Assembly (NCBI GenBank): GCA_964514565.1
Contig: CAZERA010000003.1
Location: 25,221-89,220, forward strand
Length of the DNA: 64,000 nucleotides
DNA from: an uncultured Candidatus Peribacteria bacterium
GTDB lineage: Bacteria; Patescibacteriota; Gracilibacteria; RBG-16-42-10
Direction: 5' to 3'
Made by a program: the position numbers. This document shows positions 30,001 to 33,000 of this stretch, in pieces; the stretch's first letter is position 1; every line of letters starts with the position of its first letter.

Positions 30001-33000
30001 TCATGACAAAAGAGATAACAAAATAAAACTGCTTACCTTCTTACTATACTACAAAGTTTAAATCTCTCGTATTACTCGTATCTTGGCGCCAAGGCTATTG
30101 AGTCTTTCCGCAATTTCTTCATATCCACGATTGATCGAGTAGACATTGCGCAAGATTGATTTGCCTGGTGCTGCCAACATCGCAATCAGTACAATCATGG
30201 CTGGACGTAGGGCTGGAGGACAGACTAGTTGTGTGGCTTTGAATGGAGTGGGTCCTTCAATAAAGACACGATGCGGATCAGCTAGAATAATTTGTGCACC
30301 TAGTTTAGTGAGCTCCATAAAGTAAATCGCCCGGTTCTCATATGTCCAGTCGTGAATCAATGTGGTGCCTTTTGCTTGAGCTACGATTGGTACAAAGAAA
30401 GGAAGATTGTCTTGGTTGATACCAGGATAGGGGAGCGCGTGAAGCTTTTCTTCTGGTGCTTTGAGCTGAGAAGGGAATACCTCGATATCTACTAACTTGG
30501 TGAAGCCATTTTTGGAGAGATATTCTTTGGAACGTTTGAATTTCAGGCCCATCTTTTTGAGCTTGTAAAGTTCGAGTTCCAAGAAATCAATTGGACATCG
30601 GCGAATGGTGATTTGAGAATTGGTAGTAATTGCGGCACTCAAGAACATCATTGATTCAATTGGGTCTTCGCTATTGTAGTATTCTACTTTCTTGTTGATT
30701 TCTTTGACACCTTCGATCGTAATCGTACCAGTACCGATACCGTCTACTTTCACTCCCAATGTTTGGAGGAAGTGGCATGTTTCTTGCACCATGTAGTTAG
30801 CTGTAGCAAATTTGATCACTGTTTTGCCTGGAATCTTCGCGGCAGCAATTACAAGATTTTCACAAGCAGTATCTCCTGCTTCATACATTACTACTGTAGC
30901 TGGTTTGAGCTTTTTAATGGTGACGTCATAACTATTGGTAGTGACCTTGGTTTTTACGCCCATCTCTTCGAGGCCAAATAAATGTGCACTGACAGTTCTT
31001 TTACCCAGCTTGCAACCAGAAGCGTGTGGTAGACTAAAGCTTTTGAAAAGATGGATGAGTGGTCCCATCAACATGATTACTGAACGAGTCTTGATTGCTG
31101 AGCTCTTATTGATCTTCTCCCATTGGATCACTGCTGGAGGAGTAATTTCTAATGTATTCTTTGCTGTCCATTTTGTTTGCACGCCAATACTATTGAGTAC
31201 CTCAAGCATTCTATTCACTTCTTCGATTCGGGGAATGTTGTGAAGGGTGGTGACATTTCGGTTGAGTAAAGCAGCACACAATAATCCCATTGCGCCATTT
31301 TTTGAGGCATTCGTTGTGATCTCCCCATGGAGCTTTTGACCGCCTTCGATTTCAAAGTCGATAGAATCTTCAGCGAGACTGACAATTTTGTGATTGAGCG
31401 CTTTGCTGATTCTGCTGAGCATTTCCGTAGTCAGATTCTGTTCACCCTTTTCCATTCGAGCGACAGCGCTCTGACTGCTGGCGATACGTACAGCAAACTC
31501 TTCCTGAGTCAGTCCACGTAGCTCTCGTAGCTCTTTAATAAAAGTGCCAATTTTCAGTTGTTCTTTCTCCAAAGTGATAGACATGAAAAATAGTTAAGAC
31601 GATATTTATATATCATATGTGATATTATTTCTTCAAGCGAAGATGCTGTATGGTGATGACAGTTAAATCTTTTTATCATGGAATGTAATATTGGTATTAA
31701 ACACAAGATTAGCCGAGCGGTGACTGGTTTTATTCTCAATGCTCTTTTGATTTTCTTCCAAGCGTCTTTACCACTGTGGCTTTTCTGGGTAGGTGTAGTA
31801 GTAAGCTATGTGGTGATCTTTCAAGGTGTAGTAGGTGTTTGCTACTTTTACGCAATGTTGGGTATTAAAAGAATGAACTAGAGTCGAGGTTTTGTATGAT
31901 AAGTAATGTTAAAAACTTCTTCAGTCCACAACCTCTGCCCTAGCACCTTTGACCTCTGACCTAAAATTGACTTTCTTGTTTGCAAGAGTATATTTACCCA
32001 CGGTTTGTGTACGTTCACCAAGGTTTCTTTTAAGGGTCTGCGGTGTAGAACTCAAGCCGCATATCTTTAACCCATTATGCTGTGTCTAACGTTTCTGATT
32101 CAGGTTCAAATGGCAAGAAATTGTTTGTAGGTGGACTTCCTTACAGTATGACTGCTGAGCAAGTTCAAGAGCTCTTTACAGATGCTCAAGATCTTAATCT
32201 TGCAGTAAGTTCTGTATATCTTCCAGTAGATCGTATGCAAGGCAATCGCCCTCGTGGCTTTGGCTTCGTAGAATACGTAACTGCTGAAGATGCTCAAAAG
32301 GCTATTGCTAAATTCAATGGCTTTGATGTTCAAGGTCGCAAATTGACTGTGAACGAAGCACGTCCTCAACAGGATCGTAATTAATTTAGCTATTCACTAG
32401 TAAGTCAGCTTGCTTTTTGTGAGCTGACTTACTAGAATCTGTCCGTCTTTTTTATAAAGTATATTATTATGGCTCGACGTTGTGATTTGACTGGTAAACA
32501 ACCCAGTGTAGGAAATAATCGCCCGTTCTCACTCAAGGCTACAAGACGTCGTTTCCTGCCAAATTTGCAGAAACGTCGTATCCAAATTGGTCCTGGTCAA
32601 TATATTACCCTCAAGGTGTCTACTAAAGCATTGCGTACTTTGACCAAAGACTTGGTAAAGTAAGCTTTTGTGAAAGCATTACTTTCTCTAGGTGGTGAAG
32701 TCGGTTATGTGCTCAGTAGTGATTTTGTAGAAGGAATTGTTGTTCGTGTGGTCAATACGGAGGCGATGGCGCTCTTGCGCATTGGTCAATTACTCATTAT
32801 CGAAGCTGATAATGGTGAATTGATTTTTGCGCAGGTCGCCAATTTGCGTACTGATTGGTTTCCCGAGCTCAAGGATCAACCTCGACCGCTGACCGTCCCT
32901 CGCGATAGTCGGCTTCTACAAGATGTCTTTATCCAAAAAGAGATCACACTCAAAGCGATGAAGGCCTATCGTGACGGTACATTGATGGCTGTGCGTTCTT

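What a model noticed while it worked through the whole genome (the two positions that open the first line are those of the whole stretch)
30058..31584. MurA with an N-terminal XRE-type HTH domain
The UDP-GlcNAc enolpyruvyl transferase is a 508-aa fusion with an HTH_3 DNA-binding domain (aa 16-64) ahead of MurA (aa 77-505). The fusion is found in all family genomes searched and in no other family of the class.
Evidence so far: Pfam HTH_3 plus EPSP_synthase; NCBIfam murA 316-332 bits; N-terminal 130 aa matched over 1-130 in frames of 511-517 aa in 5 of 5 family genomes incl. G000, while in 37 other genomes the match starts at residue 58-78 and 19 have none.
(Added by a program. Inside this text positions count along the whole contig: contig position 25,221 is position 1 of the stretch shown here. 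"Call 12" and the like, gene names such as g00115 and contig names such as C1 are that model's own, and its searches are not shown. The text may have been shortened before it was handed on; [...] marks where a part breaks off. The agent that wrote the report below was given it as the finding of a first reader that could run no searches.)

Follow-up and report, generated by a model that had tools for sequence, protein, structure and literature searches.

The report
DNA-binding MurA that regulates itself
The cell-wall enzyme MurA of this tiny-genome bacterium carries a DNA-binding domain, and a matching palindromic DNA site sits in its own promoter in many related lineages, which suggests that the enzyme switches off its own gene.

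Summary
The 508-aa ORF (window 30058-31584, minus strand) is real. It joins a Pfam HTH_3 domain (aa 16-64) through a flexible linker to a complete MurA with its catalytic residues, and it is the only MurA in a 1.12 Mb genome that also has murB. The same fusion occurs in at least 43 of 376 sampled genomes of other classes of the phylum (records labelled Saccharibacteria, Paceibacterota, Uhrbacteria and others). The family's copy nests among those, not with its own class's MurA. The main new result is a 16-bp palindrome, ATATCA-N4-TGATAT, just upstream of 65 of 74 fused genes (window 31610-31625). It is present at 2 of 15 HTH-less relatives and is the only intergenic copy in this genome. It fills the promoter spacer, often between divergent murB and murA, and its half-site covaries with a recognition-helix residue. 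A homodimer through the MurA body is predicted. The best reading is a self-repressing enzyme-repressor. DNA binding and ligand control are untested. A second, unrelated HTH-MurA fusion exists in another family of the same class. I found no paper on either.

The parts
30058..31584 (-). Whole HTH-MurA gene (508 aa plus stop)
   Evidence: ORF listing; Pfam and NCBIfam; only EPSP-synthase-fold gene in the genome
31393..31539 (-). HTH_3 (XRE-type) domain, aa 16-64; AF2 helices at 3-22, 27-33, 38-45, 53-63
   Evidence: Pfam HTH_3 4.3e-14; AF2 model; as conserved as the enzyme part, mean pairwise identity 0.610 vs 0.611
31444..31476 (-). Predicted recognition helix SQSAVARMEKG, aa 37-47
   Evidence: S37, Q38, S39, R43, E45, G47, Q49, N50 at 91-100% in 96 fused proteins. 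Residue 37 (S or T) covaries with the operator half-site base (T or G)
31357..31392 (-). Flexible linker, aa 65-76
   Evidence: pLDDT below 50 at aa 68-72
30070..31356 (-). MurA catalytic body, aa 77-505
   Evidence: NCBIfam PRK09369 332.5 bits; best solved match MurA 6cn1, E 2.7e-51
31012..31014 (-). Codon of Cys191 in GCKLGKR, aligned to the catalytic-loop Cys of solved MurA
   Evidence: Alignment to 6cn1 and 5ujs; at least 90% conserved in 96 fused proteins; flexible loop, pLDDT below 50 at 191-193
31610..31625 (.). 16-bp palindrome ATATCA-N4-TGATAT, the proposed operator, ending 25 nt upstream of the start codon
   Evidence: Located. It is the only intergenic exact match in the 1.12 Mb genome (3 exact in all, about 1 expected). 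Homologous sites lie upstream of 65 of 74 fused genes
31631..31636 (-). Possible -35 hexamer TTGAAG (inferred by eye)
   Evidence: Read. The tool's scan found no minus-strand promoter here and my own scan scored a different pair best. Relatives L004, L005, L008 and L009 have TTGAAA at the equivalent place
31607..31612 (-). Possible -10 hexamer TATATA preceded by TG-n, overlapping the right arm of the palindrome (inferred by eye)
   Evidence: Read; general geometry across 65 sites
31678..31881 (+). Divergent 67-aa YgaP-like membrane protein gene that shares the 93-nt control region
   Evidence: ORF; Pfam YgaP-like_TM 5.7e-12
29372..30004 (-). Downstream M50-family peptidase gene, 53 nt after murA on the same strand; possible co-transcript
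   Evidence: ORF; Pfam Peptidase_M50; no terminator-like site between the genes

Best explanation
This is a bifunctional enzyme-repressor. The C-terminal 430 residues are an active MurA, the first committed step of peptidoglycan precursor synthesis and the only copy in the genome. The N-terminal XRE-type HTH, on a flexible tether, binds a 16-bp palindrome (ATATCA-N4-TGATAT) that sits in the spacer and -10 region of the gene's own promoter. The protein dimerises through the MurA body, which places two HTH modules on the two half-sites, and this represses murA. In many lineages it would also repress the divergent murB or mreB. The result is a one-protein negative feedback on the amount of MurA. 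What the data show: the fusion, the intact catalytic residues, the sole-copy status, the conserved palindrome and its tie to HTH presence, and the helix/half-site covariation. What is inferred: DNA binding itself, repression rather than activation, the dimer, and leaderless transcription. What is speculative: that substrate, product or inhibitor binding to the MurA body changes DNA binding. The family acquired this gene, with its operator, from another class of the phylum, replacing its native MurA type.
For: Domains and catalytic residues. Sole EPSP-fold gene, with murB over its cutoff and a murG-like gene present. HTH under constraint equal to the enzyme (0.610 vs 0.611 mean identity, 4,560 pairs), with a near-invariant recognition helix. 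Palindrome, stricter pattern: exact upstream of 42 of 67 fused genes and within 1 mismatch in 56 of 67. Palindrome, looser pattern: within 1 mismatch in 65 of 74. Controls: 2 of 15 HTH-less genes of the same subtype have a site, and only 47 exact sites occur in 659,403 nt of all loci. In the own genome there are 3 exact matches against about 1 in shuffles, and the other two lie inside ORFs. Five other genomes have 0-3 exact sites each, with a site or 1-2 mismatch variant 8-13 nt before murA in all five. Covariation: Thr before the helix Gln goes with ATAGCA in 8 of 8, and other residues go with a non-G base in 56 of 57. There are 4 independent pairs on supported branches and none in the opposite direction. 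Geometry: 34 of 65 sites end 9-13 nt before the ATG, and 58 of 65 have a -35/-10 pair of at least 8/12 with the palindrome in the spacer. Divergent murB in 10 loci, with 36-37 nt control regions centred on the palindrome in four of them. Nearest solved HTH relatives are operator-binding dimers (PezA, controller proteins C.Esp1396I, C.AhdI and C.BclI). Homodimer model: score 0.68 against a best control of 0.00, runs agree in at least 89% of contacts, partner pLDDT 86; the mark was reached by 20 of 30 solved one-chain pairs and 1 of 23 single chains. Its interface residues are specific to this MurA clan. Lateral origin: tree and AU test.
Against: There is no experiment, and no RNA data set holds the locus. 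The palindrome pattern was defined after seeing the data. It is AT-rich and its arms resemble extended -10 elements, so part of its conservation could be promoter function. The covariation rests on about 4 independent events (sign test p about 0.125). Nine of 74 fused genes have no recognisable site; one of these is at a contig edge and two have a different helix. The HTH has been lost many times within the clan, with at least 9 label changes forced by supported branches, so it is dispensable. The linker is flexible and the model gives no fixed HTH-MurA contact, so no route for ligand control is visible. The murA equivalog cutoff is not met. XRE-like domains fused to enzymes can be non-DNA-binding: HppE appears among the fold matches of the second HTH type, and MBF1/EDF1 among sequence matches. 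The complex score is a model's confidence and used my own alignment. The -35/-10 count has no shuffle control.
Confidence: 0.72

Rival explanations
1. The HTH does not bind DNA. It is a structural, oligomerisation or protein/RNA-interaction module on MurA. The palindrome is a promoter element, or the site of another factor, that happens to accompany this gene type.
For: XRE-like domains occur on enzymes without DNA binding: HppE is among the fold matches (its non-DNA-binding role is recalled). The ribosome-binding MBF1/EDF1 HTH is among the closest solved sequences. The palindrome's arms look like extended -10 elements facing both ways.
Against: The palindrome tracks the HTH: 65 of 74 fused genes against 2 of 15 HTH-less genes of the same MurA subtype. 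Its half-site base covaries with a recognition-helix residue. The helix positions that read DNA in XRE proteins are the most conserved of the domain. Most fused loci have no divergent gene that would need a bidirectional promoter.
Confidence: 0.12
2. The protein binds the palindrome but activates transcription, or acts both ways depending on concentration as restriction-modification controller proteins do (recalled), rather than acting as a simple repressor.
For: The closest solved HTH relatives include controller proteins and the activator PlcR. The -35 hexamers next to the site are often imperfect, for example TTGCAA or TTGAAA, which is common at activated promoters.
Against: The site fills the spacer and overlaps the -10 (47 of 58 scored promoters), which is a position typical of occlusion. 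There is a single site rather than the paired boxes of controller proteins.
Confidence: 0.1
3. The MurA body is a catalytically dead ligand sensor and the protein is only a regulator, as in MocR/GabR-type fusions of an enzyme fold to an HTH (recalled).
For: The TIGR01072 murA equivalog score is below its cutoff, 316.3 against 392.7. The whole clan is divergent from canonical MurA.
Against: It is the only EPSP-fold gene in a genome that keeps murB and a murG-like gene. The residues aligned to the catalytic Lys, Arg, Cys, Asp and Arg of solved MurA are present and conserved. HTH-less members of the same clan are those genomes' best MurA match.
Confidence: 0.04
4. Artefact: a mis-assembled or mis-called gene, with a separate small regulator gene run together with murA or a wrong start codon.
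For: No ribosome-binding site is obvious before the ATG.
Against: The same continuous frame occurs in 8 of 8 family genomes, in 43 other-class genomes, in 120 protein clusters from several sources and in 64 of 80 named loci. The residues from the HTH into MurA are conserved without a break.
Confidence: 0.01

Closest known systems
BirA, the biotin protein ligase and bio-operon repressor of E. coli (mechanism recalled, not tested here)
   Same: One polypeptide with an N-terminal HTH on a linker and a C-terminal metabolic enzyme. A palindromic operator is bound by a dimer formed through the enzyme body. The enzyme's own chemistry is linked to transcription of its pathway.
   Different: BirA has a winged HTH and a different enzyme fold and pathway. 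Its corepressor, biotinyl-AMP, is known, whereas no ligand control is shown here. BirA represses the bio operon, while here the operator sits in the enzyme's own promoter.
PutA, the proline utilisation flavoenzyme and repressor (recalled)
   Same: An enzyme with an N-terminal DNA-binding domain that represses its own gene and a divergent neighbour from a shared control region. This compares with the murB-murA arrangement.
   Different: PutA uses a ribbon-helix-helix domain, serves a catabolic pathway, and switches by redox-driven membrane binding.
Restriction-modification controller (C) proteins C.Esp1396I, C.AhdI and C.BclI
   Same: They are among the closest solved sequence relatives of the HTH. 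They are small XRE dimers that bind palindromes overlapping their own promoter. Leaderless transcripts are reported for some (recalled), which compares with the 9-13 nt site-to-ATG spacing here.
   Different: They are stand-alone 70-100 aa proteins with paired operator boxes and control of a restriction enzyme gene. Sequence similarity is weak (E 1e-4 to 3e-3).
Canonical MurA (solved structures 6cn1, 5ujs, 1uae, 1naw)
   Same: Same two-lobed fold over aa 77-505 (E to 2.7e-51) with the catalytic-loop Cys and other active-site residues aligned.
   Different: None of the 32 solved MurA sequences matched (418-458 aa) has an N-terminal HTH. This protein belongs to a separate Patescibacteria MurA clan (100% support) with its own conserved surface (Y234, H411, W413, D436, R439) and a predicted dimer.
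Known control of MurA levels: ClpCP proteolysis with ReoM/ReoY in Firmicutes, and UDP-MurNAc feedback inhibition in E. coli (both recalled)
   Same: The shared goal is to keep the first committed peptidoglycan step in check.
   Different: Those systems act by proteolysis or enzyme inhibition through separate factors. Here control would be transcriptional and built into the enzyme.

Membership tests
MurA (UDP-N-acetylglucosamine 1-carboxyvinyltransferase) | EPSP-synthase two-lobed fold over the full length | tested here: met
   Pfam PF00275 covers profile positions 2-417 of 417; AF2 pLDDT 91.7; solved MurA matches to E 2.7e-51
MurA (UDP-N-acetylglucosamine 1-carboxyvinyltransferase) | Score above the curated family cutoffs | tested here: inconclusive
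   The subfamily model PRK09369 is met (332.5 against 297). The equivalog TIGR01072 is not met (316.3 against 392.7), and PRK12830 is not met (224 against 552)
MurA (UDP-N-acetylglucosamine 1-carboxyvinyltransferase) | Active-site residues: catalytic-loop Cys plus Lys, Arg, Asp and Arg (E. coli numbering 115, 22, 120, 305, 397, recalled) | tested here: met
   C191, K95, R196, D392 and R460 align to the conserved residues of 6cn1 and 5ujs. They are invariant in 18 fused proteins and at least 90% conserved in 96
MurA (UDP-N-acetylglucosamine 1-carboxyvinyltransferase) | Pathway context: the rest of the precursor pathway is present and no other MurA exists | tested here: met
   One PF00275 gene in the genome; murB 216.4 bits, over its cutoff; murG-like 218.5 bits, under its cutoff
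MurA (UDP-N-acetylglucosamine 1-carboxyvinyltransferase) | Enolpyruvyl transfer activity | not testable with these tools
   Needs an enzyme assay or complementation
XRE / HTH_3 DNA-binding domain | Pfam HTH_3 above the gathering score, with a helical bundle | tested here: met
   52.7 bits against 23; four helices in aa 3-63 at pLDDT 79-91
XRE / HTH_3 DNA-binding domain | Sequence-specific binding to a palindromic operator | not testable with these tools
   Supported only indirectly, by the conserved palindrome tied to HTH presence and by helix/half-site covariation
Bifunctional enzyme-repressors ('trigger enzymes' such as BirA, PutA, NadR) | Active enzyme and DNA-binding domain in one chain | tested here: met
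   (activity inferred from residues)
Bifunctional enzyme-repressors ('trigger enzymes' such as BirA, PutA, NadR) | An operator at genes of the same pathway | tested here: met
   The site lies in its own promoter in 65 of 74 loci and is shared with a divergent murB in 9 of the 10 murB-divergent loci. Occupancy is not shown
Bifunctional enzyme-repressors ('trigger enzymes' such as BirA, PutA, NadR) | DNA binding governed by the enzyme's ligand or catalytic state | not testable with these tools
   There is only a hint: the predicted dimer interface uses both lobes, which move on substrate binding in canonical MurA (recalled)

The most novel reading that the evidence does not exclude
MurA in much of the Patescibacteria is a ligand-gated transcription factor. 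The open or closed state of the enzyme, set by UDP-GlcNAc, PEP or UDP-MurNAc, would change the two-lobe dimer interface and so the occupancy of the palindrome in the murA (and murB or mreB) promoter. One protein would then sense precursor flux and set transcription of the first two committed cell-wall steps. This design appears to have arisen at least twice, with two unrelated HTH domains on two MurA clans.
Probability: 0.35. Interest if true: 0.85.

Novelty: new variant of a known kind. Interest (0 to 1): 0.7.

Why it matters
Enzyme-repressor fusions such as BirA and PutA are textbook cases, but none is known for peptidoglycan synthesis. Known MurA control works by proteolysis or feedback inhibition. 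Here a DNA-binding MurA with a recognisable self-operator appears in roughly a tenth of sampled Patescibacteria genomes. That group has very few regulators and is almost entirely uncultured, so a regulator-operator pair that can be read directly from sequence is rare and useful. It gives a simple, cheap experiment: the purified protein, an 18-bp duplex, and MurA ligands. It also offers a natural specificity switch (Ser/Thr with T/G) to test, and a probable case of lateral replacement of an essential gene together with its control site. The operator also points to compact, apparently leaderless divergent murB-murA promoters. In databases these proteins are named plain MurA, so the regulatory half goes unnoticed.

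Tried and rejected
- **Expression data:** a search of sequencing runs listed no RNA holder, and the best DNA holder had only 0.21 of the sampled words. No reads were laid.
- **Literature:** six full-text searches found nothing on an HTH-fused MurA. The term sets were MurA with helix-turn-helix and Patescibacteria; MurA, XRE, fusion and candidate phyla radiation; Saccharibacteria, MurA and DNA-binding; the enzyme's full name with helix-turn-helix, N-terminal and autoregulation; trigger enzyme with MurA; and Patescibacteria, peptidoglycan, MurA and transcriptional regulator. I read passages of two candidate papers, PMC12455944 and PMC8871954, and neither mentions it. Subscription journals are not covered.
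- **A larger regulon:** exact sites elsewhere in six genomes are few, lie in coding DNA or have unrelated spacers, so I dropped that idea.
- **A separate HTH gene next to the two HTH-less loci that keep a palindrome (L029, L044):** none found in the loci held.
- **Promoter scan:** the tool found no minus-strand promoter at the window's site, because its rule needs T at the last position of the second hexamer. My own assignment there is by eye.
- **Representative search with the first 130 aa:** it returned mostly gene fragments and added only a rough count (196 hits at E 1e-10 or better).
- **Other long open frames in class and phylum genomes (L149-L156):** these are read-through of GC-rich or unrelated sequence, not extra domains.
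- **Conserved upstream element of the second fusion type (TTTGAC-N6-GTAAAA):** it was seen only among close kin, so I do not claim it as an operator.
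Full report
**The observation.** The window holds one ORF at 30058-31584 on the minus strand, 508 aa with an ATG start. The stop-to-stop frame is only 511 aa, so there is no room for a longer form. Pfam finds HTH_3 at aa 16-64 (52.7 bits, cutoff 23) and EPSP_synthase at aa 80-495. 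NCBIfam finds the MurA subfamily model PRK09369 above its cutoff (332.5 against 297) and the murA equivalog below its cutoff (316.3 against 392.7). The protein aligns over aa 77-505 with solved MurA enzymes (best 6cn1, E 2.7e-51). K95, R167, C191, R196, D392 and R460 fall on the conserved active-site positions; the E. coli residue numbers usually quoted for these are recalled. None of the 32 solved MurA sequences matched has an N-terminal HTH.

**Genome context.** The genome is 1,117,677 bases in 7 contigs and 92.66% complete. It has exactly one EPSP-synthase-fold gene, this one. It also has murB over its cutoff and a murG-like gene. An AlphaFold2 model built on 96 fused homologues is confident (pLDDT 91.7, pTM 0.83). 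It shows four helices in aa 3-63, a linker with pLDDT below 50 at aa 68-72, and a complete MurA body whose Cys loop (191-193) is flexible, as expected.

**Distribution.**
- In the family, all 8 of 8 genomes have the fusion.
- In a 201-genome sample of the class, a match covering both the HTH and the MurA start in one long frame occurs only in those 8. The other families match from residue 36 or later (mostly 58-79) in frames mostly of 413-480 aa, or hit short stand-alone HTH ORFs, and 20 genomes have no match.
- In a 401-genome sample of the phylum, 43 of the 376 genomes from other classes, in 15 families, match from residue 3-12 to 129-130 at 42-70% identity in frames of 431-543 aa. All but one (a 431-aa frame on a short contig) are 507 aa or longer. 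Only the best 150 matches are listed, so this is a lower bound.
- All 120 best protein clusters listed, out of 8,000 scored, carry both Pfam domains at 499-555 aa.
- A scan of one genome per species kept 80 loci. The scan's own estimate is about 5,400 stored stretches holding this MurA subtype's motifs. Of the 80 loci, 64 have the HTH in frame and 16 do not.
- NCBI labels of the fused loci include Saccharimonadota (24), Minisyncoccota (5), and Nomura-, Doudna-, Uhr-, Taylor-, Kaiser- and Zambryski-bacteria. Close relatives of the window protein are labelled Abawacabacteria and Gracilibacteria.
- One fused locus is labelled Gammaproteobacteria and one HTH-less locus Bdellovibrionales. I take these for binning labels but did not test them.

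**Phylogeny.** I built a tree of 127 MurA bodies (IQ-TREE, LG+G4, short search, SH-aLRT only). It splits into two clans with 100% support. One clan holds 19 of the 20 own-class plain MurAs plus 7 others. The other clan holds all 74 fused genes, 26 HTH-less genes from other classes and one own-class plain gene. The family's 8 genes form one group (99%) inside a 61-row clade (99%) that otherwise contains only other-class sequences. A tree forcing the family together with its class is rejected (log-likelihood lower by 371.4, p-AU 8.5e-99). I named that group by taxonomy, but after I had seen the tree. The simplest reading is that the family acquired the fused gene laterally and lost the native type. 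An old paralogy with differential loss is not excluded. Within the fused clan the six basal rows lack the HTH and HTH-less rows are scattered higher up; supported branches force at least 9 label changes. Because all the HTH domains are alignable and share one operator, one gain followed by repeated loss is more likely than many gains.

**The HTH is constrained.** Across 96 fused proteins the mean pairwise identity of the HTH (aa 10-64) is 0.610, against 0.611 for the MurA body (4,560 pairs). The most conserved positions are those of the predicted recognition helix and the turn after it: S37 0.91, Q38 0.98, S39 0.99, R43 0.98, E45 1.00, G47 0.99, Q49 0.97, N50 0.99.

**The operator.** Reading the upstream DNA of the fused genes showed a palindrome with consensus aaTATATCAtataTGATATAt. 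With the stricter pattern ATA[T/G]CA-N4-TG[A/C]TAT it is exact within 200 nt upstream of 42 of 67 fused genes, within 1 mismatch in 56 of 67, and within 2 mismatches in 63 of 67. With the looser pattern ATANCA-N4-TGNTAT, 65 of all 74 fused genes have a site within 1 mismatch. The 9 without a site include one gene at a contig edge and two with a different helix, SISE[VI]TKIENG.

Controls:
- Among the 15 HTH-less genes of the same subtype with usable upstream DNA, 2 have a site (L029 exact, L044 with 1 mismatch).
- All loci together (659,403 nt) hold only 47 exact sites.
- The window's genome holds 3 exact matches, against 0-1 in five shuffles. Two of them lie inside ORFs. The third is window 31610-31625, in the 93-nt gap between murA and a divergent YgaP-like gene.
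- Five complete or nearly complete genomes of other families hold 0-3 exact sites each, and the reversed-pattern control gives 0-1. In all five a site or a variant with 1-2 mismatches lies 8-13 nt before murA.

The pattern was defined after I had seen the data. The controls are what carry the argument.

**Covariation.** Proteins with Thr instead of Ser before the helix Gln have ATAGCA half-sites in 8 of 8 cases. Proteins with another residue there have a non-G base in 56 of 57. On the tree this amounts to 4 independent pairs on supported branches. On average 3.8 of the 4 go the same way and none goes the opposite way. The sign test cannot go below about 0.125 with so few pairs. The effect is therefore consistent and suggestive but not formally significant. 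By alignment to phage 434 repressor (recalled), this residue sits at the start of the recognition helix.

**Promoter geometry.** The site ends 9-13 nt before the start codon in 34 of 65 loci, and 24-49 nt before it in the window's family. In 58 of 65 loci a -35/-10 pair scoring at least 8 of 12 can be placed with the palindrome in the spacer. In 47 of those 58 the -35 starts 8-11 nt before the palindrome and the -10 starts at its position 13-15. Where the site is within 14 nt of the ATG, the -10 ends 6-9 nt before the ATG in 25 of 35 cases. This fits an operator inside the core promoter of a leaderless or nearly leaderless mRNA. This count has no shuffle control and the DNA is AT-rich, so I treat it as inference. 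In the window I read TTGAAG (31636-31631), an 18-nt spacer, then TATATA (31612-31607) preceded by TG-n, all by eye. The tool's scan did not call it, and my own scan scored a different pair best.

**Neighbours.** Clustering of the flanking genes gave three recurrent families. MurB is divergent upstream in 10 loci and directly downstream in 2. MreB is divergent in 6 and downstream in 2. Serine hydroxymethyltransferase is divergent in 12 loci, all within the 13-row tree clade formed by L049, L063, L064, L072-L074, L077, L079-L081, L086, L088 and L089; every title shown for these loci is either Saccharibacteria/Saccharimonadales or an unclassified 'bacterium'. In 9 of the 10 murB-divergent loci the palindrome lies in or at the edge of the shared control region. 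In L030, L038, L075 and L054 that region is only 36-37 nt long, with the palindrome 9-12 nt from each start codon. One dimer there could shut off the first two committed steps together.

**Dimer.** A palindrome implies a dimer. A two-copy prediction (aa 1-500) scored 0.68 against a best control of 0.00, with at least 89% of contacts shared between runs and a partner pLDDT of 86. In the tool's calibration this mark was reached by 20 of 30 proteins solved as pairs of one chain and by 1 of 23 solved as single chains. Those counts hold only roughly, because my own alignment was used, and a pass can reflect likeness to solved structures. The interface is symmetric and lies wholly in the MurA body, using residues from both lobes (199-286 and 333-439). 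Its key residues (Y234, L337, P385, H411, W413, D436, R439) are conserved across the whole fused clan, including its basal HTH-less members, and differ in the other clan. If the dimer is real it predates the fusion, and the HTH was added to a protein that was already a dimer. Because both lobes contribute and the lobes close on substrate binding in canonical MurA (recalled), ligand state could affect dimerisation and therefore DNA binding. That step is speculation.

**Relatives of the HTH.** The closest solved sequences are a designed DNA binder, the PezA antitoxin, the controller proteins C.Esp1396I, C.AhdI and C.BclI, and PlcR. The ribosome-binding MBF1/EDF1 also appears. E-values run from 4e-5 to 3e-3.

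**A second fusion.** I checked same-class genomes that had unusually long MurA frames. Eight of the 22 sampled genomes of family f10 carry a conserved extension of about 80 aa (MKISF..DLREWME.NRWTPS.LAD.LGV.RQSVHNWI.G...) on a MurA of the other clan.
- All 8 copies hit XRE/Cro-type HTH families: HTH_23 and HTH_3 in 8 of 8, with best E-values of 7e-6 and 2e-5. For the one member whose bit scores were listed (L094), every hit is below Pfam's curated cutoff.
- Their profile finds solved XRE proteins (3op9, E 1e-4).
- The folded domain (pLDDT 81.1) matches XRE regulators such as CylR2 and SinR. Foldseek probabilities are near 1, but the E-values are only 0.01-0.1.
- Against the first HTH type it aligns in register at 14% identity (hhalign probability 38%, E 3.3e-4).

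A different HTH on a different MurA clan points to an independent fusion. A very old common fusion followed by many losses cannot be excluded. The upstream regions of these genes share TTTGAC-N6-GTAAAA inside a sigma-70-like promoter, but the genomes are close kin, so I make no claim from that.

**Verdict.** The best explanation is a self-repressing enzyme-repressor of the BirA or PutA kind, new for peptidoglycan synthesis, widespread in Patescibacteria, and apparently undescribed. Six full-text searches and passages of two papers turned up nothing. DNA binding, the sign of regulation, the dimer and any ligand control all remain to be tested.

Noticed in passing
L094 and L142-L148 (genomes G066, G033, G075, G093, G184, G191, G177, G056; same class, family f10): A second HTH-MurA fusion, unrelated in sequence: an XRE/Cro-like N-terminal domain of about 80 aa on the other MurA clan, in 8 of 22 sampled f10 genomes. 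A shared upstream TTTGAC-N6-GTAAAA element was not evaluated further.
   Followed up: partly
L029 and L044: Two HTH-less MurA genes of the fused clan still have the palindrome upstream (exact in L029, 1 mismatch in L044). No separate HTH gene was found in the loci held. This could be recent loss of the HTH, or a regulator encoded elsewhere.
   Followed up: partly
L041 and L057: Fused proteins with a different recognition helix (SISE[VI]TKIENG) and no recognisable palindrome. They may have switched to another operator.
   Followed up: no
L010 (G004:C2:211634-211984, same genus): A 152-aa frame 35% identical to residues 5-124 of the window protein. It could be a stand-alone paralogue of the HTH region.
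   Followed up: no
Proteins P0126, P0165, P0185, P0191 and P0198: Proteins of 590-1,002 aa with 7-11 tandem stretches that match the HTH, i.e. arrays of XRE domains.
   Followed up: no
window 28139-29365 (+): A 408-aa ORF with no Pfam family at E 0.001 or better. It contains an HExxH-like stretch (VHEIGHAGH), so it could be an unclassified metallopeptidase.
   Followed up: no
L051 and L036: One fused locus sits in a record labelled Gammaproteobacteria and one HTH-less locus in a record labelled Bdellovibrionales. Both genes nest among Patescibacteria sequences in the tree, so these are probably binning or labelling errors; transfer out of the phylum was not tested.
   Followed up: no
L063, L064, L072, L074, L080, L081 and L139: Proteins with Asn at helix position 42 (SQSA[IV]NR) often have an asymmetric site, ATATCA...TGGTA[TA]. 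This may be a second covariation.
   Followed up: no
window 32082-32384 (+) and 32670-34256 (+): An RRM-type RNA-binding protein gene and a HerA/DUF87 ATPase gene lie upstream of the control region. Nothing obvious links them to murA.
   Followed up: no
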